From Bacteroidota bacterium (GTDB lineage Bacteria > Bacteroidota > Bacteroidia > Bacteroidales > UBA12077): a stretch of DNA of 63,806 bases. A program made the translations under genes and the position numbers. Below are positions 3,685-20,989 of this stretch, piece after piece (within the stretch, counting starts at the first letter, position 1; every line of letters starts with the position of its first letter). The stretch covers positions 1 through 63,806 of the forward strand of contig JAYEKP010000088.1 of assembly GCA_034661075.1 (NCBI GenBank), read 5' to 3'. The notes beneath the pieces are model-generated. The model made no database searches. It was not told the DNA's origin and saw only the letters and a program-made list of their open reading frames with translations.

Positions 3685-3687
3685 TGT

Positions 3688-4398: not shown

Positions 4399-4416
4399 AG
4401 TTTATTTAATGTTTTA

Positions 4417-5580: not shown

Positions 5581-5636
5581 TATTAAAAATTTTTTATGTT
5601 AAAATATTTCTTTCTTTCATTATCCTTAATCGATGA

Positions 5637-7976: not shown

Positions 7977-8017
7977 GGAATTAAAAATAATAAAAAAATG
8001 CAATTTATTTTTGATTG

Positions 8018-8025
8018 CAAATATA
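8018..8025 (-). promoter_or_regulatory. Candidate -7 promoter box (TATATTTG) of the FNR-like gene
   Basis: Minus strand reads TATATTTG about 40 nt upstream of the ATG at 7976. Same 17-mer context as at 7181-7197. Confidence 0.35.
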
Positions 8026-8184
8026 TATCTATTTTTTTATAGATTTATATCTATATATAAATAGATTTTTATAATACATACATCAATCAAATTTATATTA
8101 AAAACATATTTTATAAAAGCTTATTTGTGAATAATTATTAGGAATTTATATTGTAGTTTTACAATGTATAAATATTTAAATATA

Positions 8185-8220
8185 TGTAATAATATATACA
8201 ATTGTAATAATATATACAAT
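8185..8220. repeat. Perfect 18-bp tandem direct repeat (TGTAATAATATATACAAT x2) ending 2 nt before the mrpE-like start codon
   Basis: Read directly: 8185-8202 is identical to 8203-8220. A related ACAATGTATAAATAT lies at 8161. Confidence 0.9.
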
Positions 8221-8222
8221 AT

Positions 8223-8717
8223 ATGAAAATCAAAAACTTCCTTGCATTATTTCTCATCTTAATGGTTGTTTGGGTATTAGTAAACAACTCCTTTTCCGGG
8301 AAAATTATTATTATAGGATTTATACTTTCAGCATTTATTGCATTTTTTTTCGGAACAAATTTACGGATTTTCGATGAGCTTAAATTTACGCCAACAGCGG
8401 TAGGGTACACTTTAATTTATCTTTTTGTATTTTTAATCGAATTAATCAAATCAAACCTCGATGTTGCCCGCCGGGTACTTACTCCCTCATTACCCATTAA
8501 TCCGGGAATTGTAAAAACCAAAACAGTATTAAAATCAAAAATGGGGCGTATGATTTTAGCTAATTCAATTACGCTTACCCCCGGAACACTTACCGTTGAT
8601 ATAGATGGCGATACTTTATATATACACTGGATTGATGTATGTTGCGACGATATTGACAAAGCAACACAAACCATTATTAAAAAATTTGAAAAACATTTAG
8701 TCAAAATATATGATTAA
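8223..8717 (+). CDS. mrpE: Mrp/Mnh-type cation:proton antiporter subunit E (MbxA/MbhA-like)
   Basis: 164 aa. MnhE-type sequence (ANSITLTPGTLTVD). First gene of the operon. Its stop overlaps the next start by 8 nt. Confidence 0.88.
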   Translation: MKIKNFLALFLILMVVWVLVNNSFSGKIIIIGFILSAFIAFFFGTNLRIFDELKFTPTAVGYTLIYLFVFLIELIKSNLDVARRVLTPSLPINPGIVKTKTVLKSKMGRMILANSITLTPGTLTVDIDGDTLYIHWIDVCCDDIDKATQTIIKKFEKHLVKIYD

Positions 8718-8970
8718 TAAAATTCTATTTATAGCAGCAATCATCATGTTGTTAGCGATTTTGCTAACACTTTACCGATTTATTAAAGGCCCTTCCGCTG
8801 CTGATAGGTTGGTGGCCTTTGATGTAATGACTGTAAGCTCTCTTGCACTTATAGCGCTCATTGCAAATTTTGCATCCCGGGTAATATATATTGATGTAGC
8901 ATTAGTTTACGGATTACTTAGCTTCCTGGGGATTATAATTGTTTCACGTTTTCTGGAAGGGGGGTTATAA
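8710..8970 (+). CDS. mrpF: Mrp/Mnh-type antiporter subunit F
   Basis: 86 aa, 3 TM helices, GPSAADRLVAFDVMT motif typical of MnhF. Confidence 0.88.
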   Translation: MINKILFIAAIIMLLAILLTLYRFIKGPSAADRLVAFDVMTVSSLALIALIANFASRVIYIDVALVYGLLSFLGIIIVSRFLEGGL

Positions 8971-8972
8971 TT

Positions 8973-9344
8973 ATGGATAGTACAATAGGTATAATTGGTG
9001 CAATTTTGGTGTTGTCAGGCTCCATATTTATCTTTTTAGGGGCTTTGGGCTTAGTGCGTATGCCTGATATATTTAATCGCATTCAGGCAGGAACTAAAGC
9101 ATCTACGTTGGGAACTTTTCTTTCTCTCATCGGATTATTGTTAATTACACCCGAATGGTGGGGCAAATTAATTTTATTAATGATATTTATCTTAATTACC
9201 AATCCTGTTTCGTCCCATGTTTTAGCAAGAGCAGCTCATTTTATTGGTGTTCCGCTGGCGGATAAAACGATAACCGATAAATATAAACAGGAAAAAAAAA
9301 CACTTTTGATTAACGACGAAATAAAAAACGATACCCATGATTAA
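8973..9344 (+). CDS. mrpG: Mrp/Mnh-type antiporter subunit G
   Basis: 123 aa. GALGLVRMPDIFNRIQAGTKASTLG is typical of MnhG. Confidence 0.88.
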   Translation: MDSTIGIIGAILVLSGSIFIFLGALGLVRMPDIFNRIQAGTKASTLGTFLSLIGLLLITPEWWGKLILLMIFILITNPVSSHVLARAAHFIGVPLADKTITDKYKQEKKTLLINDEIKNDTHD

Positions 9345-9582
9345 TCTTTTAATAACAATTGTCATCGGGATTTTAATTTTGATTATGGCCATTGTTGCCA
9401 TACACAATAAAAATCTAATAGTAGGCATTATAGCAGCAGGAGCCGTTAGTTTATTTGCTTCTATTCTGTATTTACTACTTGCCGCACCCGATGTTGCCAT
9501 GACCGAAGCCGCCATAGGGAGTGGTCTTTCTACAATTATTTTCTTTTATGTACTCAATAAAATAAAGAAACAAAATGGTTAA
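9337..9582 (+). CDS. MbhD-like small membrane subunit (DUF4040 / MnhB N-terminal-like)
   Basis: 81 aa, 3 TM helices, LLAAPDVAMTEAAIG motif. Overlaps both neighbours by 8 nt. Confidence 0.8.
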   Translation: MINLLITIVIGILILIMAIVAIHNKNLIVGIIAAGAVSLFASILYLLLAAPDVAMTEAAIGSGLSTIIFFYVLNKIKKQNG

Positions 9583-10273
9583 GAACACTTTTATATTTGT
9601 TTTGCTAGTAGGTTTTGTATTTCTGTTCTTCAATCTTTTTGCTGATTTTACCGGGAATACAGAACTTAATGAGCTTGCCGGCCATTATGCCGGCTCGGGG
9701 CATGAAGAAGTTGGTGCTGCTAACCTTGTAACTGCCGTGATTGTTACTTATCGTGGATTAGACACCTTGGGCGAAGTTACCATTTTGTTCTTATCGGCTG
9801 CCATTGTCAGCTTCTTGCTTAAAATTGAAACCTCAACAACAGATGACCGGAAGCTAAGAGCAACAAGTGAAATTTTGGATACTGCATCCAAAGTTTTAGT
9901 TCCCGTAATTTTTATTTTTGGTATTTATGTTTTTATCAACGGGCACCTTACACCCGGTGGTGGATTTCAAGGGGGAGCAATTATAGCATCAGGCCTTGTA
10001 TTAATATTACTTGCAAAACCAATAAGACGGATTAGCCATAAGCTGATTTCTATTGTTGAATCCATTTCGGGTTTAAGCTTTGTATTATTAGGTGTTGCAG
10101 GAATTCTTTTTGCTGCAGGGTTTTTAGACAATAAAATATTGTCGCTCGGTGAATTCGGAACTATTTTTAGCGCTGGCTTAATCCCTATCATATACATTTT
10201 TGTAGGATTAAAAGTTGGCGCCGAGTTATCGTCAATTATAACTAATTTACAGGAAAATCAGAACGAAGCATAA
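9575..10273 (+). CDS. MnhB-domain membrane subunit (MbhE/F-like)
   Basis: 232 aa. ANLVTAVIVTYRGLDTLGEVTILF and GHLTPGGGFQGGAI motifs of the MnhB family. Confidence 0.82.
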   Translation: MVKNTFIFVLLVGFVFLFFNLFADFTGNTELNELAGHYAGSGHEEVGAANLVTAVIVTYRGLDTLGEVTILFLSAAIVSFLLKIETSTTDDRKLRATSEILDTASKVLVPVIFIFGIYVFINGHLTPGGGFQGGAIIASGLVLILLAKPIRRISHKLISIVESISGLSFVLLGVAGILFAAGFLDNKILSLGEFGTIFSAGLIPIIYIFVGLKVGAELSSIITNLQENQNEA

Positions 10274-10644
10274 TGGAAAACTTAAATATAGAAACCGTAA
10301 CATTAATTACTGGAATAGTCCTTTTACTCATAGGTATATGGGGCTTACTTACCCAAAAAAATCTGATAAAAATGGTGATTGGGTTTGCTTTATTCGATAC
10401 CGGGATACATATTATAATGGTAAGTATCGGATATGTTAAAAATCGCACCGCTCCAATACTCGACCAGGCAGTAAAAACAAACGAAGCAGCAGAAAAAATT
10501 GTAGACCCTGTTCCACAGGCACTCGTTCTTACTGCTATTGTCATCGGGCTGGGAATTACAGCATTAATGCTTGCCTATGTTTTAAAAATGTATCAGAAAA
10601 AGAAATCTTTAGAAATCAATAATTATAACGATTTAAAATGGTAA
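10273..10644 (+). CDS. MnhC/NuoK-like membrane subunit (MbhG-like)
   Basis: 123 aa, 3 TM helices, NuoK/MnhC-like. The start shares 1 nt with the upstream stop (TAATG). Confidence 0.82.
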   Translation: MENLNIETVTLITGIVLLLIGIWGLLTQKNLIKMVIGFALFDTGIHIIMVSIGYVKNRTAPILDQAVKTNEAAEKIVDPVPQALVLTAIVIGLGITALMLAYVLKMYQKKKSLEINNYNDLKW

Positions 10645-13600
10645 GACCTTTATATATTATTGCTATTGCATTAGGAACAGCTTTTTCGTTGGGATTTTTT
10701 AAAAAGGCCAATCGAAATATTCCTTATGCATTCATGTTTTTGGCCATGGCTTTCATGGCATTTATTTCGGGCCAGTGGCTTTATGCTTTTTTAGCCAATC
10801 AGCAAGAAGCGATTCAAATTTTTACAGCAGGTTTTCAACCCCCATTTTCTATTAGCTTGCAAATGGGATTGCACGAAGCGGTTTTTCTGAGTTTGATTAA
10901 TGGAATTGGAGTATTATCTGCAATCTATTTATACGAACAATTCCGGGATAAAGGGGTGCAAATGATGATGGTTTTTATTTTGCTGTTTATGGGATTAAAC
11001 GTAATCATCATGACCCGCGATATTTTTAACCTGTTTGTTTTTCTCGAAATCTCAACCATTGCCCTTATTGGATTAATTTTATTAGAGAAAAAAGAGCATG
11101 CGATGAGTTCGGGATTTAAGTATCTGATTGCATCAGGAATAATAAGCGGGATATTGCTCATCGGAATTATTGCCATCTATTATTACAACGGCACATTATT
11201 CATGAATGACATTATTAGCTCTAACCCGCTTCTTCTAAAGGGTGGTTCAGTAGCTATTTTTCTTACCTTAATAGCAATCGTATTAGAATTAAAACCATTC
11301 CCGGCCAATGGATGGGCTTTAGATGTTTATGAAAGTGCACACCCGGGAGTTGGAGCCATTTTATCTGCCGCAATGGGCACGGCAATGCTATTTGTATTGT
11401 ATAAAATAACTCCCTTCATTGCTGATCCATGGTTTAATGTAATTGCTACCATTGGAATCATCACGTTTATTGGATCAAACCTCTTAGGAATTCAGCAAGA
11501 TAATGCCCAGCGCTTGTTAGGCTACTCTTCCGTAGGGCAGTTAGGATTAATTATGCTTGTTATCGGATTATCACCGTATCTTGGGGATAATTATCTATTT
11601 ATAGGGTTCACCCTTTTAATTAGCCACTTCCTGGCAAAAGCAGGTTTATTTTGGATAGCCGGTATTATCAAACAAAAAAAATTAAAAGGATGGTCTGTGC
11701 TTCGAAAAAAACCACTTTTAATGGTATTGTTTGGTACATTTATTTTTGCATTAATTGGGTTTCCTCCATTCCCATCATTTATGGGAAAATGGGAATTAAT
11801 TATGCAATTATCCCTATCAGGACAACATATATGGATGTTTTTGATTTTAATTGGTTCTTTGTTTGAATCAATATATCTTATAAGATGGTTTAGTGTGTCC
11901 CTTAAAACTGATAATACGGGGTTAAAAACTTTCAAAATTAAGCTTCATTCGATTCTGCCTCCTGCAATTTTTGGAATTGCAATTTATATATTTGGGTATA
12001 TTGCTGGAACATATCTAGATGCAGCAAAAGCTATCAATTATATCCCATTATTATTCATTATTTTTATAGCTTTAATTGATTTCTTACCTGCATGGGTGAA
12101 AAATATTATTTCAATATTTGGAGTTATTTTATATATAATATTTATTTATCCTACAGTAGAAGGTGATTTATTGAGACAAATTTTCCTTGGAATATTTTTA
12201 GGTGGTGCAGTTATAACATTATTTTCTGGATTTTATTATAAGGGTAAACGAGTGGGGTTTTATCCAATGGCATTAGCTATGTTTGCTGGTTTGGCAATGC
12301 TTATTACTGCTACTAATCTGTTTGAGATACTTTATGGTTGGGAATTAATGACAATTGGCTCATATTTTTTACTCATTAGAGGTAAAAAATCACAACCCCA
12401 CGGTTATAGCTATATGATGTTTTCAATTGGAGGTTCTTATGCTATAATGTTTGGATTTGCATTAGCGTTCACTAGTGCTGGAAATTTAGGATTAATTGCA
12501 TTAACTGGCATTAATGTCCTTCCAACTTTAGCATATTCTTTAATTTTATTAGGTTTCATGACAAAAACAGCCTCTTTCGGAGTGCATATATGGTTACCTG
12601 GAGCCCATGGAGAAGCTGTTGCAGATATTCATTTTATGGCATCCGCAATTTTACTTAAAGCCGGTGTGTTTGGAATTATTTTAGTGTTATTCGGAATGGG
12701 TTCTGAAGCAACTTATGCTAAAAATATATTATTAGCTCTTGGTTGGATTGGAGCCATTTCAGCTTTAATTGGAAATATGGCAGCAACATTTCAGGAAAGT
12801 GCAAAACGATTGCTTGCTTGGTCAAGTATTGGACAATTAGGATATATTATTTTTGGTCTTGCCACAATGTCGTATTTAGGTTGGATAGCTGGATTATTTT
12901 ATACCGTAACTCACTTTTTATATAAAGGTGTTTTATTTTTAATTATAGGAGGCATTGCTCTCAAATTAGGAACTCCTCTAATGTACAAAATGGGTGGGCT
13001 AATTAAAAAAATGCCATTTTCTTTTATTGCTGTATTAATTGCGATTATAACTTTGGCTGGAGTACCTCCCCTAGTTGGTTTTGCAGGTAAATGGCTGTTT
13101 TATAATACAATTATTAGCGAAGGTTTTTATTTTCAAGGAGTTGTTGTATTGTTTTCTGGAATAGTTGCATTCCTTTACCTTTTTAGATTAATACATACCA
13201 TTTTTTTAGGCCAGCTTAAAGATGAACATAGATATGTAAAAGAAATATCTCCATGGTTGTTAATTCCTGTATACTTGCTTTTAATAGGTATAATGATAAT
13301 ATCGGCAAGACCGGAAATTATTTTAAAACCTTTAGGAAATTATTTAATTGCCTATTTCCCAAATGGGGCAATTACTTGGAATGGAACAATGGCTAGTACA
13401 GGATTAGGATACTGGAATGGATATTGGGTAATGATAATCATCGGTGTAATGTTTGTATTTGTTCTTGGATGGTTACTTTACACCAATGCCAAAGCACAAA
13501 AAGTAAAACAATTTAACATGGTATACAGTGGCGAAAGGCCATTTACTCCGGAAACAACACATATTGCTCACAATATGTATGCCGGATACAGTAAAGCTTT

Positions 13601-13763
13601 AGGATTTATTGTGGAGCCATATATTACAAGATTCTGGAATAATATGTCTGATGCATTAGTACATTTAGGCGGGCTGATTAAAAGGATATATAATGGCAAT
13701 GGACAAACCTATGCCTTTTACATTATTGCCTATATTGTAATTACATTTTTTCTTGTTTTTTAA
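10638..13763 (+). CDS. Fused double NuoL/M/N (MrpD)-type antiporter-like subunit (MbxH-H'-like fusion)
   Basis: 1041 aa, all membrane. There are two successive proton-conducting-membrane-transporter-like halves. The first contains GYSSVGQLG, and the second contains WLPGAHGEA and WSSIGQLGY. Confidence 0.85.
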   Translation: MVRPLYIIAIALGTAFSLGFFKKANRNIPYAFMFLAMAFMAFISGQWLYAFLANQQEAIQIFTAGFQPPFSISLQMGLHEAVFLSLINGIGVLSAIYLYEQFRDKGVQMMMVFILLFMGLNVIIMTRDIFNLFVFLEISTIALIGLILLEKKEHAMSSGFKYLIASGIISGILLIGIIAIYYYNGTLFMNDIISSNPLLLKGGSVAIFLTLIAIVLELKPFPANGWALDVYESAHPGVGAILSAAMGTAMLFVLYKITPFIADPWFNVIATIGIITFIGSNLLGIQQDNAQRLLGYSSVGQLGLIMLVIGLSPYLGDNYLFIGFTLLISHFLAKAGLFWIAGIIKQKKLKGWSVLRKKPLLMVLFGTFIFALIGFPPFPSFMGKWELIMQLSLSGQHIWMFLILIGSLFESIYLIRWFSVSLKTDNTGLKTFKIKLHSILPPAIFGIAIYIFGYIAGTYLDAAKAINYIPLLFIIFIALIDFLPAWVKNIISIFGVILYIIFIYPTVEGDLLRQIFLGIFLGGAVITLFSGFYYKGKRVGFYPMALAMFAGLAMLITATNLFEILYGWELMTIGSYFLLIRGKKSQPHGYSYMMFSIGGSYAIMFGFALAFTSAGNLGLIALTGINVLPTLAYSLILLGFMTKTASFGVHIWLPGAHGEAVADIHFMASAILLKAGVFGIILVLFGMGSEATYAKNILLALGWIGAISALIGNMAATFQESAKRLLAWSSIGQLGYIIFGLATMSYLGWIAGLFYTVTHFLYKGVLFLIIGGIALKLGTPLMYKMGGLIKKMPFSFIAVLIAIITLAGVPPLVGFAGKWLFYNTIISEGFYFQGVVVLFSGIVAFLYLFRLIHTIFLGQLKDEHRYVKEISPWLLIPVYLLLIGIMIISARPEIILKPLGNYLIAYFPNGAITWNGTMASTGLGYWNGYWVMIIIGVMFVFVLGWLLYTNAKAQKVKQFNMVYSGERPFTPETTHIAHNMYAGYSKALGFIVEPYITRFWNNMSDALVHLGGLIKRIYNGNGQTYAFYIIAYIVITFFLVF

Positions 13764-13781
13764 TTTAAGATTACCATAGCT

Positions 13782-14690
13782 ATGAACGATATTATAGTCA
13801 AACTTTTATGGACATTATTAGGTTTATTCATTGTGCTGAATTGGGGATTGTTAATGGGTGCAACCATGCGAAAAATTGTAGCACGCGTAGCACATAGATA
13901 TGGAATCCCTTTTTATCAACCCTGGCTCGACCTGATTAAATTGTATTCTAACCGTTCATCGATTAGTCATGGTGTCATGTTTTACTTAGGCCCTGTTTTC
14001 AGGCTTGGTGGCGGATTAGGAATTTTCCTTTTTTTACCGCTCATCTATGGTTCTGAGCATTTTAGTAATTTCTCATGGGCCGGTGATTTAGTATTGATTT
14101 TATACTTCCAGTTTTTTGGGATGTTAGGCATGGCCTTAGGTGCAGGCGAAGGGGGGCACCCAAATTCTGTCATTGGAATTACCAGGGGATTAGGACAGTT
14201 TACCACGGTTGAGCTACCATTAACCCTGGCAGTAATATCTATTGCACTCCAATATAATACTCTTTCAATCTCAGAAATAGTAGCAGCACAACAAGGTGGA
14301 TTTCAAAACTGGACCTTAGTTACCAATCCTATTGCCACAGCAGCAGCTATGCTTTCATTACTTGGATTATTCAGACACGCACCTTTTAACTTAGTTATGG
14401 CACCGAATGAAGTTCCTATTGGGCCACCAACCGAGTATCACTCCGCCTTTTTAGGTGTTCTTAGAACCAATGGTGCAATTTTACATGTAGTTGAAGCGGC
14501 GTTATTTATGAATTTGTTTTTTGGGGGAGCAACCCATTGGGTAGAATTTATTGTAAAAACATTCCTGATTTATTTCTGGTCTGTTTTTGTTGGTGTTGTT
14601 TCACCACGTTTCAGAATAGAACAATCGGTAACCTGGTTCTTAAAAATACCTTTAGCGATAGGTATTTTGGCTGTAATTCTTTACATCTAA
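13782..14690 (+). CDS. NuoH/HycD-like membrane subunit (MbxM-like)
   Basis: 302-aa polytopic protein, complex I subunit-1 family-like. Placed before the NuoB-like gene. Confidence 0.8.
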   Translation: MNDIIVKLLWTLLGLFIVLNWGLLMGATMRKIVARVAHRYGIPFYQPWLDLIKLYSNRSSISHGVMFYLGPVFRLGGGLGIFLFLPLIYGSEHFSNFSWAGDLVLILYFQFFGMLGMALGAGEGGHPNSVIGITRGLGQFTTVELPLTLAVISIALQYNTLSISEIVAAQQGGFQNWTLVTNPIATAAAMLSLLGLFRHAPFNLVMAPNEVPIGPPTEYHSAFLGVLRTNGAILHVVEAALFMNLFFGGATHWVEFIVKTFLIYFWSVFVGVVSPRFRIEQSVTWFLKIPLAIGILAVILYI

Positions 14691-14706
14691 TTAAAAATCA
14701 TTTAGC

Positions 14707-15390
14707 ATGTCAGATAATACTAAAAATATAGAAGAAAAAAAGGATAAATTTCTCGCTGAAGAAAACAAAAAAAGAATAGTAACCGGCCCGGATGGGGTAC
14801 AATTTGAAGTAGACCCTTTACAGGATTATTTTTGCGATCAGCGTCCTGTTGCAAAGGATCCCAAAAATAAAGTTATTGAAAAATTTTTAAATTGGGCTCG
14901 GGCAGAATCTTTATGGGTTTTGGGCTTTGGAACCGGCTGTGGGAGTATTGAAATCCCTCCACTACTAACTCCAAGGTTTGATGCTTTTAGATATGGTGTT
15001 CAAATGAGGCCTACTCCCAGACAATCATCGGTACTTATAATTTCCGGATATTTAGCGGTAAAAACATTAAAAAGAGCGATCCGCTCTTACGAGCAAATGC
15101 AAAATCCGAAATATGTACTTGCCTTAGGCAGCTGTACCATTAACGGAGGAATGTACTATGATAGTTATAATACCATTAACCGTTTAGATTATTATTTGCC
15201 GGTAGATGTATATGTGGCCGGTTGTATGCCACGTCCGGAAGCACTATTAGCCGGATTTAATAAACTAAAAGAACGAATAAAAGCCGGAAAAGCTGAAGGA
15301 GCCAACGATTATGCCAACAAATTTGACTGGTACAAAGCCAATCAAAAAAAAATTATTAAAGATTGGAACATGCCTGATTATAATTGGTAA
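14707..15390 (+). CDS. NuoB / hydrogenase small-subunit-like protein (MbxJ-like) with only three cluster cysteines
   Basis: 227 aa. NuoB-like blocks are SLWVLGFGTGCGSIE (canonical FGLACCxxE), PRQSSVLIISG, LGSCTINGGMY and VAGCMPRPE. Only Cys78, Cys143 and Cys173 are present. Confidence 0.85.
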   Translation: MSDNTKNIEEKKDKFLAEENKKRIVTGPDGVQFEVDPLQDYFCDQRPVAKDPKNKVIEKFLNWARAESLWVLGFGTGCGSIEIPPLLTPRFDAFRYGVQMRPTPRQSSVLIISGYLAVKTLKRAIRSYEQMQNPKYVLALGSCTINGGMYYDSYNTINRLDYYLPVDVYVAGCMPRPEALLAGFNKLKERIKAGKAEGANDYANKFDWYKANQKKIIKDWNMPDYNW

Positions 15391-15417
15391 AAACCGAACA
15401 AAGTAAAATATTTAAAA

Positions 15418-15951
15418 ATGAAGGAAATCATTCAAGATATAAAAAAGAGATTCAATTGTACTGATGAGATTGAGCAATCAAAAACGCAGAGTTATATTAC
15501 AGTTCAAAAAGAGTTAGCCATTGCTTTAATTACACATCTAAGAGATATTAAAGGTTTTACACACCTGGTTCTTTTAACGGCTGTAGACTGGATTGAAAAC
15601 AACCAGTTCCAGCTAACCTACATGCTAAATAATCCAACAAAAAAAATTGACTTAGGCGTGCGGGTTTTTATCGACCGCGAAACAGCAACCATGGACAGCG
15701 CACATCATTTATGGGAGCAGATGGCAACCTATCAGCGTGAGTTAAAAGAGATGTTTGGTATTGATTTCCCGGGTAGTCCAAGACTTAACGAACCCTTTAT
15801 ATTAGAAGGATGGGATAACATCCCTCCATACCGTAGAGATTTCGACACCTTAAAATATGCACAGGAAACTTTCTTCCCGCGCGAAGGAAGAGAGACCAAT
15901 GATCCTGCTGAATTTATGAAGAAAAAGATGTATCCCGATGAAGAAAAATAA
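15418..15951 (+). CDS. NuoC-like 30-kDa subunit (MbxK-like)
   Basis: 177 aa. NuoC-type core (LVLLTAVDW..., FGIDFPGSPRL...LEGWD). Overlaps the next gene by 14 nt. Confidence 0.82.
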   Translation: MKEIIQDIKKRFNCTDEIEQSKTQSYITVQKELAIALITHLRDIKGFTHLVLLTAVDWIENNQFQLTYMLNNPTKKIDLGVRVFIDRETATMDSAHHLWEQMATYQRELKEMFGIDFPGSPRLNEPFILEGWDNIPPYRRDFDTLKYAQETFFPREGRETNDPAEFMKKKMYPDEEK

Positions 15952-17128
15952 TAAAATATGGCCAGGCGACCGGTCTAAATACCCGGCTTTTGATGAGAAT
16001 GGAAACCCTATCATCGACTTAAAGTCGCATAAATTAACCAAATTGTGGCATGGGCCTAACCATCCCGGAGTTACAGGAAATATGTCGCTTGAGCTTACCC
16101 TAAGCGGAGATGAAGTAGTGGAAGCGAAAACGCATGTTGGATACTTACACCGTGGATTTGAAAAACTAATGGAACGTCGGTTATATATTCAATGTTTCCC
16201 TACATGTATCAGGATGTGTGTTCCTGAAGCGGACTCAAATGAATATGTTTTGGCAGCATCTATTGAAGATTTAGGGGGAATAGAAATTCCTGAAGCTGCC
16301 TCATGGATGAGAACACTCGTTCTTGAGATGGCCAGATTACAAGTTTTATTAAGAACAGTTCCGGGACAGGCTGCAACTCTTTCATTAGGCATGGGGGCTC
16401 AATGGGGAATGTATTTAAGAGACCTCATACTAGACCGCTTCGAAGAACTCACCGGAGGTCGTATTTATCATATGTTTATTATTCCCGGAGGGGTTCGTGG
16501 ACTATTACCTGCCGGATTCAAAAAACGAATGGAAGAGAATTTAGTAGAGATTGAAGAATTTATCGATAAAATTGAGGATTTAATATTTACCAATGCCATA
16601 TTTAAAAAACGAACTATTGGAATAGGTTACATTGATCCTTCATGGGTAGATAAATATGGCATTGTCGGCCCAAATGCAAGAGCTGCAGGGTATAACCGCG
16701 ATGTTCGAAAAGACTACCCCTATTTAAAATATAATGAACTGGATTTTGAACCTTATGTTGGCAAAGATTCTGATGTATTCACCCGTTCACAAGTAAGAAA
16801 ACATGATTTAATTCAAACGGTTGATTTAATCCGACAAATTCTGGCAAAAGTTCCTGAAAAAGGAGACATTCGGGCAAAAACGCCTAATGTACTACATTGG
16901 CAGCTTCCCAAAGGAGAAACCTATCAAAGAAGTGAATCTTCAAGAGGGGAATATGGTTTATATGTAGTTTCCGATGGTTCCAAATACCCAAGGAGGGTAA
17001 ATCTTAGAGGACCCAGTTATACTCATGCTGTAGCTTTACTCGAAAAATTATTAATCAATGCAAACATTGCTGATGTTCATTCTATCATGGTATCATTACA
17101 AACTTGTCCGCCTGAAATTGAACGATAA
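15938..17128 (+). CDS. NuoD / [NiFe]-hydrogenase large-subunit-like protein (MbxL-like) lacking two of four NiFe cysteine ligands
   Basis: 396 aa. Contains GPNHPG and HVGYLHRGFEKLME blocks. The N-terminal ligand motif reads R-M-C94-V-P-E97 instead of R-x-C-G-x-C. The C-terminus reads Q-T-C390-P-P-E393-I-E-R-stop instead of D-P-C-x-x-C-x-x-R. Confidence 0.85.
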   Translation: MKKNNKIWPGDRSKYPAFDENGNPIIDLKSHKLTKLWHGPNHPGVTGNMSLELTLSGDEVVEAKTHVGYLHRGFEKLMERRLYIQCFPTCIRMCVPEADSNEYVLAASIEDLGGIEIPEAASWMRTLVLEMARLQVLLRTVPGQAATLSLGMGAQWGMYLRDLILDRFEELTGGRIYHMFIIPGGVRGLLPAGFKKRMEENLVEIEEFIDKIEDLIFTNAIFKKRTIGIGYIDPSWVDKYGIVGPNARAAGYNRDVRKDYPYLKYNELDFEPYVGKDSDVFTRSQVRKHDLIQTVDLIRQILAKVPEKGDIRAKTPNVLHWQLPKGETYQRSESSRGEYGLYVVSDGSKYPRRVNLRGPSYTHAVALLEKLLINANIADVHSIMVSLQTCPPEIER

Positions 17129-17145
17129 CTTGTGGTGATTTGTGT

Positions 17146-17568
17146 ATTTGGTTATATGATTATTTGAAAAATTGATATAAATATGAGACTTTATTCTTTT
17201 GAAAAACTTGAAGTATGGAAGTTATCACGAAAATTGAATAAAAATATTTATCAAATTAGTGAGAAATTTCCTGATAGTGAGAAATTTGGATTAACATCTC
17301 AAATAAGAAGAGCTTCAGTTTCAATTTCTTCAAATATTGCAGAGGGAAACTCAAGAAAATCAGGAATTGAACAAGCTAGATTCACAGAATTTGCATTTGG
17401 AAGTTTAATGGAAGTGTTGAATCAACTAATACTTGCTAATGATCTGGAGTTTATTAATGAACAAATTTTAAATAATGAAAGATTATTAATAGAAGAGATA
17501 GGTAATAAGATAAATAAATTGAAAGAAGTTCAATTGAGAAAAGGGCACAATTCTTCATATAACCAAAT
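17146..17568. repeat. 14-bp perfect inverted repeat bracketing the four-helix-bundle gene (arms 17146-17159 ATTTGGTTATATGA and 17555-17568 TCATATAACCAAAT)
   Basis: Read directly. The left arm is 24 nt upstream of the start codon. The right arm lies inside the last codons of the ORF. Confidence 0.8.
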
Positions 17569-17578
17569 CAACAAATAA
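17183..17578 (+). CDS. Four-helix-bundle protein (23S rRNA intervening-sequence protein / Avd-like family)
   Basis: 131 aa. YSFEKLEVWKLSRKL...FGLTSQIRRASVSISSNIAEGNSR...FAFGSLMEV is the family signature as I remember it. It interrupts the L-N gene junction of the operon. Confidence 0.85.
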   Translation: MRLYSFEKLEVWKLSRKLNKNIYQISEKFPDSEKFGLTSQIRRASVSISSNIAEGNSRKSGIEQARFTEFAFGSLMEVLNQLILANDLEFINEQILNNERLLIEEIGNKINKLKEVQLRKGHNSSYNQINK

Positions 17579-17594
17579 TCTAATAAACAATAAA

Positions 17595-19391
17595 ATGAAA
17601 TTAAAAGACATATTAACACCTTTTACCGCCTGGAAAAATGTTTTTGAAGATCCCAAAACGGTAAAAGACCCTTTAAATGACCGGCCAGGAGCCGAAAGAT
17701 ATAGAGGCTTTCATAAAAATGATATCGAAACCTGTATTGGGTGTGGTACGTGTGAGGAAATCTGTGAAAATCAAGCCATTGATTTGGTTCCTGTAGAAGG
17801 CATCGAAACAAAAGACGGGGACAGTGGATTACGGCCCAGAATTGATTACGGAAGATGTTGCTGGTGTGCCCTATGTGTGGATGTTTGTACCACAGGGTCG
17901 CTAACTCTAAGTAACGAATATACCTGGGTTTCTGAAGATCCTGAAGACTTTAGATATACCCCTGGGGTTGATAAAAAAACCTGGGACAAAAATGAAGCAG
18001 GATGGAAAAAACCTGAACATGGGTATGAATTATATCCTCTTGAGCGGGTGAAAATCGAGCATCTGAAACCGGAAGAGAGGGATCAATCATTTATAGAGAT
18101 AATAAAAGGTTACTCCAAAGAAGAAGCACAAAAAGAAGCCGACCGTTGTGTGGAATGTGGGATATGTGTTGCAACCTGCCCTGCACATATGGGAATCCCT
18201 GAATATATTAAAGCCGTTCGGGAAGATAATATTGAAGAAGGACTTAGAAAATTGTATGAAACCAACCCCTTACCCGAGATTTGTGGAAGGATATGTACGC
18301 ATAAATGTGAAACGGTTTGTTCTGTCGGGAATCTGGGTGAGCCTCTATCTATCCGATGGCTCAAAAGATATATTGCCGACCAGGTGGATTCTGAAGACTA
18401 TAAACGAATTTTAGGAACCGATGGCATTGAAAATAAAGATAAAAAAATAGCGATTATTGGCTCTGGGCCATCGGGATTATCAGCAGCATACTATCTGGCT
18501 CTCATGGGATATCAGGTTAAAATATTTGAAGCTTATCCACAAGCCGGTGGAATGATGCGTTATGGAATCCCGGAGTATCGATTACCTTACGGCCAGATTG
18601 ACAAAGATATAAATTATATTCTGTCATTAGGTGTTGAAATAAAATACAATACACGAATAGGCAAAGATATAACCCTTGAAAATCTTCAGAAAGAATACGA
18701 CGCAGTATTTTCAGGTACAGGATTGCATTTGGGCAGAAGTACCCGAATACCGGGAACAGACCATGAAAATGTTTATCAGGCAATCGATCTACTGCGAGAT
18801 ATTACTATGGGGAAAGAAGTCCCTGTTGCTGAAAAGATAGTTGTAATTGGAGGGGGAAATGTAGCAATGGATATTACCCGCTCGCTGGCACGTTTACAAA
18901 ATCAGAAGTATGGTAAAGTACATATAACAGCAACCTCGCTTGAATCTGAGGATATTATGCCCGCCGACCGGGAAGAAGTGGTAGAGGCGCGCGAAGAAAA
19001 AGCAACCATTGAACCCGGATGGGGACCGACATCCATCGAGATTGAAAACAATAAAATTAAAGGATTGCATGTGCAGAAATGTACTTCTGTTTTTGATAAA
19101 GATGGCCGCTTCAATCCAAAATTTGATGAATCACAAACAAAATTCTTCGAAGCTGATATGGTGATTGAATCCATAGGACAGGGAATGGATATTGAATACA
19201 TCAGTAAAGATACCCGCGAACAAATGGAGTTTGACCCTCGAGGTAGAATTATTGTTGATAATTATTTCCAGACAGGTGCCAAATGGCTGTTTGTAGGTGG
19301 TGATATTATCCAGGGGCCGGATGTTATCCATGGTATTGCCAACGGACATAAAGCAGCCATAGGAATTGACCGGTTTTTAATGAATAAATAA
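17595..19391 (+). CDS. Fusion protein: NuoI/MbxN-like 2x[4Fe-4S] ferredoxin domain + GltD/NfnB/PreT-like FAD- and NAD(P)H-binding iron-sulfur flavoprotein
   Basis: 598 aa. N-terminal CIGCGTCEEIC and CCWCALCVDVC motifs. GltD-type Fe-S region follows (RCVECGICVATCP...GRICTHKCETVC). FAD fold IAIIGSGPSGLSAAYYL...AGGMMRYGIPEYRLP, and a second dinucleotide fold IVVIGGGNVAMD. Confidence 0.85.
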   Translation: MKLKDILTPFTAWKNVFEDPKTVKDPLNDRPGAERYRGFHKNDIETCIGCGTCEEICENQAIDLVPVEGIETKDGDSGLRPRIDYGRCCWCALCVDVCTTGSLTLSNEYTWVSEDPEDFRYTPGVDKKTWDKNEAGWKKPEHGYELYPLERVKIEHLKPEERDQSFIEIIKGYSKEEAQKEADRCVECGICVATCPAHMGIPEYIKAVREDNIEEGLRKLYETNPLPEICGRICTHKCETVCSVGNLGEPLSIRWLKRYIADQVDSEDYKRILGTDGIENKDKKIAIIGSGPSGLSAAYYLALMGYQVKIFEAYPQAGGMMRYGIPEYRLPYGQIDKDINYILSLGVEIKYNTRIGKDITLENLQKEYDAVFSGTGLHLGRSTRIPGTDHENVYQAIDLLRDITMGKEVPVAEKIVVIGGGNVAMDITRSLARLQNQKYGKVHITATSLESEDIMPADREEVVEAREEKATIEPGWGPTSIEIENNKIKGLHVQKCTSVFDKDGRFNPKFDESQTKFFEADMVIESIGQGMDIEYISKDTREQMEFDPRGRIIVDNYFQTGAKWLFVGGDIIQGPDVIHGIANGHKAAIGIDRFLMNK

Positions 19392-19408
19392 TTTAAAATT
19401 ATTTTGCT

Positions 19409-20389
19409 ATGATAGATCTTTCGACCGAATACATGGGGTTAAAACTAAAAAACCCAATTATCGCAGCCAGCTCGGGACTAACCGACACGGCAGAAAAAGT
19501 AAAAAAACTGGAAGATAGTGGTGTAGGTGCTGTTGTTTTAAAATCATTGTTCGAAGAACAAATCCGTATGAAAGTTGATTCTTTAGGTATGAACAACATG
19601 TTTAATACCTATTCGGATAACGAAAATTACATAGCCTTTTACACCAAACAAAATACTGTAAACGAATATTTAACGCTTATCAAAGACTCCAAAGCAAAAG
19701 TTAATATTCCGGTTATTGCCAGCATTAATTGCTACTCTATGGGCGAATGGGTTGAGTTTACCCAAAAAATTGAAGAAGCAGGAGCTGACGGTATTGAATT
19801 AAATATGTTTATATTACCCGGAGATATTGAACAAAAAGGAGAAGAAATTGAACAAAAATATTTTGACATTATCCGGAAGGTTCAGGAACATACATCGCTA
19901 CCTGTTGCTGTGAAATTAAGCTACTATTTTTCGGGAATGGGCGAAATTTTAAAGCGTATCTCTCAAACCGGAATAAAAGGAATGGTATTATTTAATCGTT
20001 TTTATAATCCTGATGTTGATTTGGAAAATGAAAAAATAAAACCTTCGAGAATTTTTAGTGTCCCTGAAGAAAACTCCATGTGTATCCGTTGGATTGGTTT
20101 ACTATCGGGTAAAGTAACTTGCGACATGGCTGCTTCAACGGGTATCGATGATGGATATGGCGCATTAAAAAATATTCTGGTCGGCGCCAAAGCCGTTCAG
20201 GTAGCATCTGCTTTATATCAAAATAAATTAGAACATATTAACCAAATGCTAACCCAGATGGAATCGTGGATGCAGAATAAAGGGTACAATTCTATCCAGG
20301 AAATTATTGGAAAATTAAATTACTCCAAACACAATGTTGAATTGTACGAAAGAGCCCAGTTTATGAAATATTACTCGAGTTACGAATAA
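19409..20389 (+). CDS. Dihydroorotate dehydrogenase-like (PyrD/PreA-fold) FMN TIM-barrel protein lacking the class-1 catalytic Cys
   Basis: 326 aa. N-terminus LSTEYMGLKLKNPIIAASSGLT and GADGIELN are DHOD-like. Where class-1 DHOD/DPD has LN(L)SCPN, this protein has LNMFILPG. No C-terminal ferredoxin domain. Confidence 0.75.
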   Translation: MIDLSTEYMGLKLKNPIIAASSGLTDTAEKVKKLEDSGVGAVVLKSLFEEQIRMKVDSLGMNNMFNTYSDNENYIAFYTKQNTVNEYLTLIKDSKAKVNIPVIASINCYSMGEWVEFTQKIEEAGADGIELNMFILPGDIEQKGEEIEQKYFDIIRKVQEHTSLPVAVKLSYYFSGMGEILKRISQTGIKGMVLFNRFYNPDVDLENEKIKPSRIFSVPEENSMCIRWIGLLSGKVTCDMAASTGIDDGYGALKNILVGAKAVQVASALYQNKLEHINQMLTQMESWMQNKGYNSIQEIIGKLNYSKHNVELYERAQFMKYYSSYE

Positions 20390-20402
20390 CGAAATAAGGA
20401 GA

Positions 20403-20432
20403 ATGACCGGTATTTTGCCGGTCATTTTTTTA
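20403..20432 (+). terminator. Rho-independent terminator ending the 8223-20389 operon
   Basis: ATGACCGG-tattttg-CCGGTCAT followed by T7, 14 nt after the stop codon. Confidence 0.8.
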
Positions 20433-20512
20433 TCATACAAATATAATTATATAGATATATTGATTTATATAATATTTTTCCCTATTTTTACGTAAACTAA
20501 AATTTTACACCT

Positions 20513-20989
20513 ATGCTAGCCAAAGAGATTTTAGAAAAAAAGAAAGAACAAGGGAATCATAAAGTGAGTACAATAACAGAAAACACTTCTGCTTTTGAAG
20601 CCATAGCTCAATTGGACAAATTAAAAATTGGTTCGTTATTAGTCATCAACAATAAAAATGAAATCTTAGGAATTGTTTCGGAGCGTGATATTTTATATAA
20701 ATGCTATAACTCAGGTATCCCTCTAAAAGAAAGAACCATCAAAGATTTAATGACTCCTAAGGAAGATCTTATCATTGGCAAATTGGAAGATGATACGCAC
20801 TATTTGCGAAATGTAATGACTCAAAAACGAATCCGGCATATTCCCATTATTGATAATTCAGGCCAATTAGCAGGTATTATTTCTTCAGGCGATATCCTGA
20901 AAAATGAACTGAAAGTAACCGAAAAAGAAGCCCGATTATTACGCGAACATATCAGGAATCCTTTCGGAATACATTTGTATGATGAATAA
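20513..20989 (+). CDS. CBS-pair domain protein
   Basis: 158 aa. Two CBS-like repeats (GIVSERDIL..., HIPIIDNSGQLAGIISSGDILK). Confidence 0.8.
   Translation: MLAKEILEKKKEQGNHKVSTITENTSAFEAIAQLDKLKIGSLLVINNKNEILGIVSERDILYKCYNSGIPLKERTIKDLMTPKEDLIIGKLEDDTHYLRNVMTQKRIRHIPIIDNSGQLAGIISSGDILKNELKVTEKEARLLREHIRNPFGIHLYDE

What the first reader, a model, noticed from the sequence alone, without database searches (positions are those of the whole stretch)
8223..20389. Mrp + Mbx/MBS-type ion-pumping module hard-wired to a GltD/NfnB-like flavoprotein and a DHOD-like FMN protein: candidate undescribed respiratory complex
Seen:
- There are 14 co-directional ORFs. Six junctions overlap by 1-14 nt and the other gaps are 2-54 nt.
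- The only strong terminator follows the last gene (20403-20432).
- The gene order is: MrpE, MrpF, MrpG, MbhD-like, MnhB, MnhC/NuoK, a fused double NuoL/M/N-type antiporter subunit (1041 aa), NuoH-like, NuoB-like, NuoC-like, NuoD/[NiFe]-large-subunit-like, an inserted four-helix-bundle gene, a NuoI-like ferredoxin fused to a GltD-like flavoprotein, and a DHOD-like protein.

Known (from memory, not checked here):
- A duplicated antiporter subunit (H, H') and the NuoH homologue placed before the NuoB homologue is the arrangement of archaeal Mbx/MBS (membrane-bound sulfane reductase). It is not the arrangement of Mbh hydrogenase or complex I.
- Those complexes receive electrons from free ferredoxin through subunit N.

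Inference:
- Here subunit N is covalently extended by an NAD(P)H/FAD iron-sulfur flavoprotein and followed by an FMN barrel protein.
- The electron input/output module therefore differs from MBH, MBS, Ech, FHL and complex I as I know them.
- A Na+/H+-translocating NAD(P)H-linked oxidoreductase with an unknown second substrate is the simplest reading.
- No hyp or protease maturation genes are present in the window.
Basis: partly seen in the sequence, partly recalled or inferred. Interest (0 to 1): 0.9.

Follow-up and report, generated by a model that had tools for sequence, protein, structure and literature searches.

The report
Bacterial MBX respiratory complex, Bacteroidota variant
This is the Bacteroidota version of "MBX", a widespread but biochemically untested bacterial relative of the archaeal sulfur-reducing ion pump MBS that has its own NAD(P)H-reading flavoprotein, and it carries an extra, lineage-specific FMN protein that appears not to have been described.

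Summary
In detail: 14 co-directional, tightly packed genes at 8223-20389, ending in a clean terminator. Every domain call was confirmed.

All six core subunits tested (H, H', M, J, L, N) match the P. furiosus MBS structure (6u8y) best. MBS hallmarks tested here are met:
- a proximal Fe-S cluster with only three Cys ligands;
- no [NiFe] CxxC pairs;
- no quinone His/Tyr.

Subunit N is fused to an NfnB/GltD-like flavoprotein. This is not undescribed. The same 13-gene cluster occurs in Thermotogae ("MBX", mbxA induced by sulfur in T. maritima), and Proteobacteria, Spirochaetota and others carry it. The gltD replacement of NuoI was noted in silico in 2015. No purification or assay turned up in the papers I could search.

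The gene after the flavoprotein varies by clade:
- rubrerythrin-like in Proteobacteria and Thermosipho (once fused to the flavoprotein);
- DHOD-like in 24 of 30 Bacteroidota-clade loci;
- a CBS protein alone in others.

The DHOD-like protein keeps FMN-contact residues but lacks the DHOD/DPD catalytic base. The four-helix-bundle gene is a passenger.

Best reading: an NAD(P)H-linked, ion-translocating sulfane-sulfur oxidoreductase with an optional FMN side module.

The parts
7278..8003 (-). Divergent Crp/FNR-family regulator with an FNR-like N-terminal Cys motif (C-x2-C-x5-C) plus a central Cys
   Evidence: Pfam cNMP_binding + HTH_Crp_2. Cys spacing read from the translation. A homologue lies upstream and divergent in about 19 of the 80 loci, almost all in the Bacteroidota-type clade. 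An O2-sensing role is an inference.
8223..8717 (+). MrpE / MbxA-type subunit
   Evidence: PF01899 MNHE, E 5e-42. First gene of the conserved order in all loci.
8710..8970 (+). MrpF / MbxB-type subunit
   Evidence: PF04066, E 4.5e-15.
8973..9344 (+). MrpG / MbxC-type subunit
   Evidence: PF03334, E 2.3e-27.
9337..9582 (+). MbhD / MbxD-type subunit
   Evidence: PF13244, E 5.5e-20.
9575..10273 (+). MnhB (+MbhE) / MbsE-type subunit
   Evidence: PF04039, E 5.8e-26; PF20501, E 7.7e-07.
10273..10644 (+). MrpC / NuoK / MbxG-type subunit
   Evidence: PF00420, E 7.2e-25.
10638..13763 (+). Fused antiporter-like subunits H (N-terminal half) and H' (C-terminal half), 1041 aa
   Evidence: Two Proton_antipo_M stretches. 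Best PDB matches are 6u8y_H for residues 6-236 and 6u8y_X (H') for residues 531-1035. The two are fused in 50 of 59 loci and split in 9 loci and in Thermosipho.
13782..14690 (+). Subunit M (NuoH-like membrane anchor of the peripheral arm)
   Evidence: PF00146. Best PDB match 6u8y_M, E 3.4e-35; the next best is E 4.4e-13.
14707..15390 (+). Subunit J (NuoB-like), carrying the proximal [4Fe-4S] cluster with only three Cys ligands
   Evidence: Best PDB match 6u8y_J, E 4.9e-61. The MbsJ C28, C93 and C123 equivalents are invariant in 68/68 family members. The non-ligand C25 position is Gly in the window and in 57/68. The loop has the same length as in MbsJ.
15418..15951 (+). Subunit K (NuoC-like)
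   Evidence: PF00329, E 6.6e-25.
15938..17128 (+). Subunit L (NuoD / [NiFe]-large-subunit-like, without a NiFe site)
   Evidence: Best PDB match 6u8y_L, E 3.5e-86, against Nqo4 at 3.5e-57 and MbhL at 1e-30. It keeps the MbsL C85 and C385 equivalents. The second Cys of both CxxC motifs is E or D in 73/73. Nqo4 H38 is Thr and Y87 is Val.
17183..17578 (+). Four-helix-bundle gene (23S rRNA IVS protein / TIGR02436): a passenger, not a conserved component
   Evidence: PF05635, E 8.9e-35. At this position only in the window, L001 and a subclade (L081-L084). Absent here in the other 79 loci of the genome scan.
17595..19391 (+). Subunit N (NuoI-like, 2x[4Fe-4S], residues ~1-125) fused to an NfnB/GltD-like flavoprotein (2x[4Fe-4S] + FAD + NAD(P)H sites)
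   Evidence: Pfam Fer4_7 + Fer4_20 + Pyr_redox_2. NCBIfam PRK13984 matches end to end at 915.8 bits (cut-off 946). PDB: residues 5-115 match 6u8y_N best (E 2.4e-21), and the remainder matches NfnB-type chains at ~1e-78. Sixteen Cys and both Gly-rich dinucleotide motifs are invariant across 14 diverse members. The gene always follows L in the conserved cluster.
19409..20389 (+). DHOD-like FMN barrel protein (NCBIfam NF005741): clade-specific accessory
   Evidence: PF01180, E 4.2e-14. NF005741 at 413.6 bits, above the 303 cut-off. FMN-contact residues are invariant but the catalytic base and substrate Asn residues are missing. The AF2 model is closest to the pig DPD FMN domain. The gene follows the fusion in 24 Bacteroidota-clade loci and lies upstream of mrpE in 2 Spirochaetota loci.
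20402..20434 (+). Rho-independent terminator
   Evidence: 9-bp G+C-containing stem, 7-nt loop, T8 tail.
20513..20989 (+). CBS-pair protein, co-conserved with the cluster (candidate regulatory partner)
   Evidence: PF00571, 2 stretches. A homologue follows the fusion or the DHOD-like gene in 15 loci from several phyla and in L081-L084.

Best explanation
The cluster encodes the Bacteroidota form of bacterial MBX. This is an MBS-type, Mrp-based, ion-translocating membrane oxidoreductase in which ferredoxin-accepting subunit N is fused to an NfnB/GltD-like NAD(P)H flavoprotein.

Proposed path: NAD(P)H -> FAD -> two [4Fe-4S] (GltD N-terminal domain) -> two [4Fe-4S] (N domain) -> the three-Cys proximal [4Fe-4S] in subunit J. 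The open iron of that cluster reduces sulfane sulfur (polysulfide) in the J/L/M chamber, as in P. furiosus MBS. The reaction drives H+ pumping by H and H' and Na+/H+ exchange by the Mrp module. The reaction is near equilibrium (about 60 mV, roughly 12 kJ per 2 e-), so it could run in reverse in sulfur oxidisers.

The DHOD-like FMN protein is a clade-specific accessory that most likely docks on the flavoprotein and exchanges electrons with its Fe-S chain, as the FMN domain does in dihydropyrimidine dehydrogenase. That would give a side branch to an unknown soluble substrate. It occupies the gene slot that a rubrerythrin-like protein holds in other phyla. The CBS protein is a candidate regulator. 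The four-helix-bundle gene is a passenger.

Shown: the architecture, the homologies, the residue patterns and the co-conservation. Inferred: the substrate, the direction, the ion coupling and the physical attachment of the DHOD-like protein.
For: MBS-type core:
- All six core subunits tested match 6u8y best, by wide margins.
- The gene order is that of mbxABCDFGHH'MJKLN.
- J has exactly three invariant cluster Cys with an MbsJ-length loop. L has no CxxC pair and no quinone His/Tyr. These are the features PMC7684303 ties to sulfane reduction.

Integral NAD(P)H module:
- N and GltD form one polypeptide with 16 invariant Cys and both dinucleotide motifs.
- No free NuoI-like gene lies in the cluster.
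- The order E-F-G-D-B-C-H-H'-M-J-K-L-(N-GltD) is kept in every one of about 60 loci with upstream DNA, across more than 10 phyla.

Sulfur link:
- Thermosipho has the same cluster, with a fusion protein 53% identical.
- T. maritima mbxA rises 4.4-fold with S0 (PMC9431562).
- Many hosts are sulfur reducers or oxidisers: Halanaerobium, Thiothrix, Sedimenticola, Thiodiazotropha.

Accessory slot:
- P0121 fuses a rubrerythrin domain to the C-terminus of N-GltD.
- Accessory type is clade-specific.
- The DHOD-like gene is linked in two gene orders in two phyla.
- The DHOD-like protein keeps FMN-contact residues, and its model is closest to the DPD FMN domain.
- DPD itself joins GltD-like and DHOD-like domains.
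Against: - No member of the fused family was found purified or assayed, so the substrate is inferred from residue patterns and one qRT-PCR result in a distant relative.
- NAD(P)H to polysulfide yields little energy for a machine with two pumps plus an antiporter.
- The literature models assume ferredoxin as the donor (PMC9431562, 10.1101/322537).
- The host makes menaquinone, so a quinone acceptor cannot be excluded on physiology alone.
- The DHOD-like gene is missing from most of the family, and a paralogue sits away from the cluster in relatives. Its attachment to the complex is therefore unproven.
- A terminator separates the CBS gene from the operon.
Confidence: 0.5

Rival explanations
1. 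An Rnf-like ferredoxin:NAD(P)+ oxidoreductase. Reduced ferredoxin docks on the N domain, electrons flow to FAD and NAD(P)+ (or the reverse), and this drives or consumes the ion gradient. No third substrate is involved. This is the older Mbx model.
For: This role is proposed in PMC4758237 and in the Mesotoga preprint 10.1101/322537. The window encodes a ferredoxin-dependent AOR. In Endoriftia, Mrp-Mbx is co-expressed with the ferredoxin-requiring rTCA cycle (PMC11636981).
Against: Such an electron path would bypass the proximal cluster and the J/L/M chamber, where coupling occurs in MBS, MBH and complex I (PMC7684303). Yet the three-Cys catalytic-type cluster is invariant in 68/68 members. P. 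furiosus Mbx itself was reassigned from this role to sulfane reduction (PMC7684303).
Confidence: 0.15
2. A complex-I-like NAD(P)H:menaquinone oxidoreductase that uses the GltD module in place of NuoEFG.
For: The host has menaquinone biosynthesis genes. The energy span would comfortably drive pumping. The MBS chamber is as wide as that of complex I (PMC7684303).
Against: The quinone head-group ligands are absent throughout: Nqo4 H38 is Thr and Y87 is Val in 73/73. J lacks the tandem-Cys motif of NuoB. The same complex occurs in Thermotogae and Halanaerobiales, which to my knowledge lack quinones (not tested here). The window already has Nqr next door.
Confidence: 0.08
3. A membrane-bound flavin-based electron-bifurcating or confurcating enzyme. 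The NfnB-like FAD splits NADPH electrons between the Fe-S chain leading to the membrane site and a second branch through the DHOD-like FMN (or through the rubrerythrin-like di-iron protein in other clades).
For: The flavoprotein is closest to bifurcating NfnB-type chains at ~1e-78. GltD scores ~1e-50 and DPD ~1e-31. A second redox protein occupies the adjacent slot in most clades and is fused in P0121.
Against: No NfnA/PyrK-like partner is present. Some clades have no accessory at all. GltD-like modules also act as plain NADPH entry points in solved complexes. Sequence alone could not settle the cluster ligation.
Confidence: 0.08
4. The DHOD-like gene is only a co-transcribed neighbour: a soluble FMN enzyme of separate function, not a subunit of the complex.
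For: It is absent from most of the family. Paralogues lie elsewhere in relatives. It has no Fe-S domain of its own.
Against: The gap is 17 nt and there is no terminator before it. It follows the fusion in 24/24 loci of several Bacteroidota subclades. It is independently linked in Spirochaetota in a different position. It lacks a catalytic base, so it is unlikely to be a stand-alone dehydrogenase of the DHOD type.
Confidence: 0.35

Closest known systems
P. furiosus MBS (membrane-bound sulfane reductase, formerly Mbx; PDB 6u8y)
   Same: Same gene order. Best structural-sequence match for H, H', M, J, L and N. Three-Cys proximal cluster. Vestigial C85/C385 in L. No NiFe site. No quinone His/Tyr. 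Complete Mrp module.
   Different: N is fused to an NAD(P)H/FAD flavoprotein instead of standing free to accept ferredoxin. H and H' are one polypeptide. The dispensable MbsJ C25 is Gly. Extra DHOD-like and CBS genes are present. The host is a mesophilic bacterium.
Thermotogae 'MBX' (T. maritima 13-subunit cluster; Thermosipho melanesiensis, L085)
   Same: Same family. The N-GltD fusion is 53% identical over its full length. Same order of all subunits. mbxA is sulfur-induced in T. maritima.
   Different: Thermotogae have H and H' split, a rubrerythrin-like last gene instead of the DHOD-like one, and a Rex-type rather than an FNR-type neighbouring regulator.
NfnAB / GltD-type NADPH modules (4ylf_B, 5jca_L, Stn and Bfu-type fusions)
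   Same: The 2x[4Fe-4S] + FAD + NAD(P)H domain of the fusion aligns end to end at ~1e-78.
   Different: No NfnA/PyrK partner. The domain is attached to a NuoI-like domain of a membrane complex.
Dihydropyrimidine dehydrogenase (pig DPD; bacterial PreT/PreA)
   Same: Same set of parts: a GltD-like module, four [4Fe-4S] clusters and a DHOD-like FMN barrel. The DHOD-like model's best fold match is the DPD FMN domain.
   Different: The ferredoxin domain is at the N-terminus of the GltD protein rather than the C-terminus of the barrel. The catalytic Cys and pyrimidine-binding Asn residues are absent. The whole assembly sits on a membrane pump.
Respiratory complex I / NDH-1 and group-4 [NiFe] hydrogenases (MBH, Ech, FHL)
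   Same: Shared ancestry of the B, C, D, H, I, K and L/M/N-like subunits.
   Different: No NuoEFG. No tandem-Cys N2 motif. No quinone ligands. No NiFe ligands.

Membership tests
MBS/Mbx-type membrane oxidoreductase | Gene order mbxABCDFGHH'MJKLN with a complete Mrp module | tested here: met
   ORFs and Pfam. The order is conserved in about 60 loci.
MBS/Mbx-type membrane oxidoreductase | Proximal [4Fe-4S] in J held by three Cys only, with a shortened loop | tested here: met
   C28/C93/C123 equivalents invariant in 68/68. The C25 position is Gly in the window. No indel relative to MbsJ.
MBS/Mbx-type membrane oxidoreductase | L keeps one Cys of each former CxxC pair (C85, C385) and lacks Nqo4 H38/Y87 | tested here: met
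   The window has both Cys, with Thr and Val at the quinone positions.
MBS/Mbx-type membrane oxidoreductase | Two antiporter-like subunits, H and H' | tested here: met
   Both are present, fused in a 1041-aa protein. Best hits are 6u8y_H and 6u8y_X.
MBS/Mbx-type membrane oxidoreductase | Free-standing subunit N that accepts electrons from ferredoxin | tested here: not met
   N is the N-terminal domain of a 598-aa flavoprotein.
MBS/Mbx-type membrane oxidoreductase | Polysulfide / DMTS reductase activity coupled to ion translocation | not testable with these tools
   Needs a biochemical assay.
Bacterial MBX with N-GltD fusion (Thermotogae / proteobacterial type) | NuoI-like domain fused to a GltD-like flavoprotein as the gene after L | tested here: met
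   53% identity to the Thermosipho protein in the same context. The fusion was noted in PMC4758237.
Bacterial MBX with N-GltD fusion (Thermotogae / proteobacterial type) | Cluster ends with a rubrerythrin-like gene | tested here: not met
   The window has a DHOD-like gene in that slot. Rubrerythrin-like genes occupy it in other clades.
Group-4 [NiFe] hydrogenase (MBH / Ech / FHL) | Four Cys NiFe ligands (two CxxC motifs) in the large subunit | tested here: not met
   The second Cys of both motifs is Glu in the window, and E or D in 73/73.
Respiratory complex I / NDH-1 | Tandem Cys in NuoB, His/Tyr quinone ligands in NuoD, NuoEFG input module | tested here: not met
   The J motif is GTGCG. H38 is Thr and Y87 is Val. 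No NuoE, NuoF or NuoG domains lie in the cluster.
NfnAB transhydrogenase | NfnB-like subunit paired with an NfnA (PyrK-like FAD/[2Fe-2S]) subunit | tested here: not met
   An NfnB-like domain is present. No PyrK-like gene lies in the cluster.
Dihydroorotate / dihydropyrimidine dehydrogenase | Catalytic Cys/Ser base and substrate-binding Asn residues in the FMN barrel | tested here: not met
   C130 is I/L/V, N132 is deleted and N67 is hydrophobic in 34/34. FMN-contact residues K43, N127, K164 and G250 are kept.
NCBIfam NF005741 'dihydroorotate dehydrogenase-like protein' | Whole-protein score above the curated cut-off | tested here: met
   413.6 bits against a cut-off of 303.

The most novel reading that the evidence does not exclude
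In Bacteroidota, MBX is a three-site redox hub. An NfnB-like flavin takes NAD(P)H electrons and divides them (or gathers them) between the sulfur-reducing, ion-pumping membrane site and a docked FMN barrel that acts on an unknown soluble substrate. That would make it a membrane-bound, ion-coupled electron-bifurcating or confurcating enzyme, with the rubrerythrin-like and CBS proteins as interchangeable modules of the same slot in other phyla.
Probability: 0.08. Interest if true: 0.9.

Novelty: new variant of a known kind. Interest (0 to 1): 0.55.

Why it matters
MBS and MBH are the accepted evolutionary stepping stones to complex I. The only versions studied biochemically come from hyperthermophilic archaea and use free ferredoxin.

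The bacterial form has a built-in NAD(P)H module and is spread across many phyla, including gut-related and sediment Bacteroidota, sulfur-oxidising symbionts and Thermotogae. A 2024 paper still lists it as of unknown function and direction.

If it is an NAD(P)H-linked, ion-pumping sulfur oxidoreductase, it adds an unrecognised energy-conserving step to the sulfur cycle of mesophilic anaerobes. It would also be an independent solution to the step that turned a ferredoxin-driven pump into an NADH-driven one.

Two observations give concrete handles for experiments: the variable accessory slot (FMN barrel, di-iron protein or CBS protein) and the natural Gly at the dispensable MbsJ C25 position. 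Several hosts are cultured: Prolixibacter denitrificans, Thiothrix caldifontis, Halanaerobium saccharolyticum and Tropicimonas isoalkanivorans.

Tried and rejected
- **[NiFe] hydrogenase:** rejected on ligand residues.
- **Complex I:** rejected on the NuoB and NuoD motifs and the missing NuoEFG.
- **DHOD-like protein as a real DHOD or DPD:** rejected, because the catalytic base and substrate Asn residues are missing.
- **Four-helix-bundle gene as a subunit:** rejected, because it is restricted to a subclade.
- **Bifurcating versus non-bifurcating flavoprotein:** I tried to decide this from Fe-S ligand patterns against NfnB alignments. It was not decisive, so I dropped it.
- **Second DHOD-like copy in the window:** none found.
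- **FNR box or repeat in the 8003-8223 intergenic region:** only AT-rich imperfect inverted repeats turned up.
- **Promoter scan:** not above shuffled expectation.
- **Literature:** ten searches found no biochemical or structural study of the fused bacterial complex. Schut et al. 2013 (FEMS Microbiol Rev), which probably discusses it, is not held.
- **Count of 594 genome hits:** this may include GltD-only relatives, because one search pattern lies in the GltD domain. Only the 80 fetched loci were verified. Nearly all of those align over the full length; a few are cut by contig ends.

Full report
**Observation.** The 14 co-directional ORFs between 8223 and 20389 are exactly as described. Six junctions overlap by 8, 8, 8, 1, 7 and 14 nt. 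Seven gaps measure 2, 18, 16, 27, 54, 16 and 17 nt. A canonical terminator follows the last gene at 20402-20434: a 9-bp stem, a 7-nt loop and T8. Other terminator-like matches in the region are at chance level. Pfam confirmed every domain call with strong scores.

**The core is MBS/Mbx-type.** Against all PDB sequences, each core subunit tested matches the P. furiosus MBS structure 6u8y best, and by wide margins.

| Subunit | Best match | E-value | Next best |
|---|---|---|---|
| L | 6u8y_L | 3.5e-86 | Nqo4 3.5e-57; MbhL 1e-30 |
| J | 6u8y_J | 4.9e-61 | 3.7e-38 |
| M | 6u8y_M | 3.4e-35 | 4.4e-13 |
| 1041-aa protein, C-terminal half | 6u8y_X (H') | 5.5e-52 | see next row |
| 1041-aa protein, N-terminal half | 6u8y_H | 9.4e-43 | MbhH 2.3e-38 |
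| N (first ~115 residues of the 598-aa protein) | 6u8y_N | 2.4e-21 | 1.1e-10 |

The gene order equals mbxABCDFGHH'MJKLN.

**MBS hallmarks tested across the family.** The MBS structure paper (PMC7684303) defines the enzyme by three features:
- a proximal cluster held by only three Cys of MbsJ (C28, C93, C123), with C25 out of reach because the loop is short;
- two vestigial Cys in MbsL (C85, C385);
- absence of the quinone ligands Nqo4 H38 and Y87.

I extracted 68 J and 73 L subunits from related loci and aligned them.
- The three J ligands are invariant, and the loop has the MbsJ length.
- The C25 position is Gly in the window and in 57 of 68 sequences. This fits the published finding that C25 is dispensable.
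- In L, the second Cys of both former CxxC motifs is E or D in all 73, so no NiFe site is possible.
- C85 is kept in 55 of 73 and C385 in 33 of 73. The window keeps both.
- H38 is Thr in most and Y87 is Val in all.

The complex is therefore neither a hydrogenase nor a canonical quinone reductase.

**The flavoprotein fusion.** The 598-aa protein has two parts.
- The N-terminal part is a NuoI/MbsN-like 2x[4Fe-4S] domain.
- The remainder is an NfnB/GltD-like module, which aligns end to end with NfnB-type chains at about 1e-78.
- Across 14 diverse members, 16 Cys and both Gly-rich nucleotide motifs are invariant.
- NCBIfam already has a full-length model for it, PRK13984 'putative oxidoreductase' (915.8 bits).
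- An exhaustive search of 1.84 billion representatives found only about a dozen 50%-identity clusters with the full-length fusion. All other hits match only the GltD part.

**Distribution and synteny.** A scan of species-representative genomes returned 80 loci. Nearly all align over the full length of the fusion; a few are cut by contig ends. The sources include:
- Bacteroidota;
- MAGs labelled Chlorobiota, Cloacimonadota, Neomarinimicrobiota, Fermentibacteraceae, Bipolaricaulota and Anaerolineales;
- Spirochaetota and Halanaerobiales;
- Alpha-, Beta- and Gammaproteobacteria, including Thiothrix, Sedimenticola, Thiodiazotropha and Tropicimonas.

L001, a Bacteroidota MAG from a tar biofilm, is nearly identical to the window. 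Mapping all window proteins onto these loci shows the order E-F-G-D-B-C-H-H'-M-J-K-L-(N-GltD) in every locus with upstream DNA. H and H' are fused in 50 of 59 loci.

One representative, P0122, is from Thermosipho melanesiensis and is 53% identical to the window's fusion. It sits in the same cluster, followed by a rubrerythrin-like gene, with a Rex-type regulator gene upstream.

**What was already known.**
[quoted passage not shown] He proposed ferredoxin:NAD(P)+ activity.
- The T. maritima cluster is called MBX, and mbxA rises 4.4-fold with S0. The authors assume ferredoxin as donor (PMC9431562).
- A Mesotoga preprint calls it an NADP:ferredoxin oxidoreductase.
- A 2024 Endoriftia study lists 'Mrp-Mbx' among complexes of unknown function and direction (PMC11636981).

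I found no purification, assay or structure of the fused form in ten searches. The review most likely to discuss it (Schut et al. 2013) is not held.

**The variable slot after the flavoprotein.** What follows the fusion depends on the clade.
- In the proteobacterial clade, a 150-170-aa rubrerythrin/ferritin-like protein follows in nearly every locus with room. Thermosipho has one too.
- In the Bacteroidota clade, a DHOD-like gene follows in 24 of 30 loci with room, a CBS-pair gene alone in 5, and nothing recognisable in 1.
- In the Halanaerobiales / Spirochaetota / Anaerolineales / Bipolaricaulota-type clade, mostly nothing follows.
- P0121 carries NuoI-like, GltD and rubrerythrin domains in one 764-aa chain. 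This is Rosetta-stone evidence that the slot encodes a physical partner of the flavoprotein.
- In two Spirochaetota loci a DHOD-like gene with the family motifs lies directly upstream of mrpE (27 nt and 284 nt away). The association has therefore arisen in two gene orders.
- A CBS homologue follows the cluster in 15 loci from several phyla. In the window it lies just past the terminator.

**The DHOD-like protein.**
- It belongs to NCBIfam NF005741, 'dihydroorotate dehydrogenase-like protein' (413.6 bits).
- In 34 family members the FMN-contact residues K43, N127, K164 and G250 (L. lactis DHODA numbering) are invariant.
- The catalytic base C130 is I, L or V; N132 is deleted; N67 is hydrophobic.
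- An AlphaFold model (pLDDT 78) is closest to the FMN domain of pig DPD (E 3.6e-17, TM 0.65), then to class-1 DHODs.
- It is therefore an FMN barrel of the DPD/DHOD fold without DHOD chemistry.
- Together with the fusion it reproduces the parts list of DPD, with the ferredoxin domain moved.
- The window's copy belongs to a Bacteroidales subclade in which the gene was duplicated. The second copy lies about 3.4 kb downstream in relatives but is absent from the window.

**The four-helix-bundle gene.** At this position it occurs only in the window, in L001 and in a subclade (L081-L084). It is absent here from the other 79 loci of the genome scan. It is a passenger.

**Mechanism.** The only continuous Fe-S path runs from FAD through four clusters to the three-Cys proximal cluster. 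Coupling in this superfamily happens at the J/L/M chamber. A substrate at that site is therefore needed, and the residue pattern points to sulfane sulfur.

NAD(P)H to polysulfide spans about 60 mV, using standard potentials from my own knowledge. That is roughly the 12 kJ per 2 e- that MBH is reported to work with (PMC8165549). The reaction is thus feasible but close to equilibrium, and it could be reversed in sulfur oxidisers. The rival readings (ferredoxin:NAD(P)+, menaquinone, bifurcation) are listed with their evidence.

**Verdict.**
The core reading is right, but 'undescribed' is too strong and the DHOD-like protein is not hard-wired to the family.
- This is a new variant of a known, biochemically untested kind.

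Noticed in passing
window 1048-6992 (- strand): A six-gene nqr-like operon (Na+-translocating NADH:quinone oxidoreductase) lies divergent from the MBX cluster, with the FNR-like regulator between them. Pfam confirmed NqrA, NqrB-like (NQR2_RnfD_RnfE) and NqrF-like (Fer2 + FAD_binding_6 + NAD_binding_1) products; the three ORFs between them were not scanned. Two NAD(P)H-linked ion pumps would thus sit side by side.
   Followed up: partly
window 7278-8003 (- strand): The Crp-family regulator has an FNR-like Cys pattern (C-x2-C-x5-C near the N-terminus plus a central Cys), which suggests O2/redox sensing. A homologue is conserved upstream of the cluster in about 19 loci, almost all in the Bacteroidota-type clade. 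Thermosipho has a Rex-type regulator gene there instead.
   Followed up: partly
window 8183-8222: The sequence TGTAATAATATATACAAT occurs twice in tandem immediately before the mrpE start codon, in a very AT-rich 219-nt intergenic region. It may be an operator. The repeat tool did not report it.
   Followed up: no
window 17183-17578; L013 ~408; L081-L084: Four-helix-bundle genes (TIGR02436 / 23S rRNA IVS protein, distantly Avd-like) sit in intergenic spacers of this operon at different positions in different genomes: between L and N here, and before K in L013. They behave like small mobile passengers.
   Followed up: partly
window 20513-20989; 15 related loci: A ~155-aa CBS-pair protein is co-conserved with the cluster across several phyla. 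It follows the flavoprotein directly where the DHOD-like gene is absent. In the window a terminator separates it from the operon.
   Followed up: partly
P0121 (764 aa, from the representative search): A natural triple fusion of NuoI-like, GltD and rubrerythrin domains in one chain. This implies the small rubrerythrin-like protein of proteobacterial and Thermotogae clusters is a subunit rather than a stress protein.
   Followed up: partly
window 23849-26548: An oxidative-stress block: two Fe/Mn superoxide dismutase genes in tandem (the first with a shortened N-terminal domain), a canonical rubrerythrin with a rubredoxin domain, and a nitroreductase.
   Followed up: no
window 29728-33440: An aldehyde:ferredoxin oxidoreductase gene lies next to DUF364 and ThiF-family genes (possibly tungsten/pterin cofactor handling). 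This shows the host uses ferredoxin-linked metabolism.
   Followed up: no
window 52520-54052 (- strand): A VitK2_biosynth (MqnA/MqnD-type) gene and an adjacent nucleoside phosphorylase-family gene suggest menaquinone synthesis by the futalosine route.
   Followed up: no
L081-L084 (relative of the window): A second DHOD-like paralogue (about 63% identical to the window's) lies 3.4 kb downstream of the first, after a MacB/FtsX permease gene and before a T9SS-plug gene. The window lacks this copy.
   Followed up: partly
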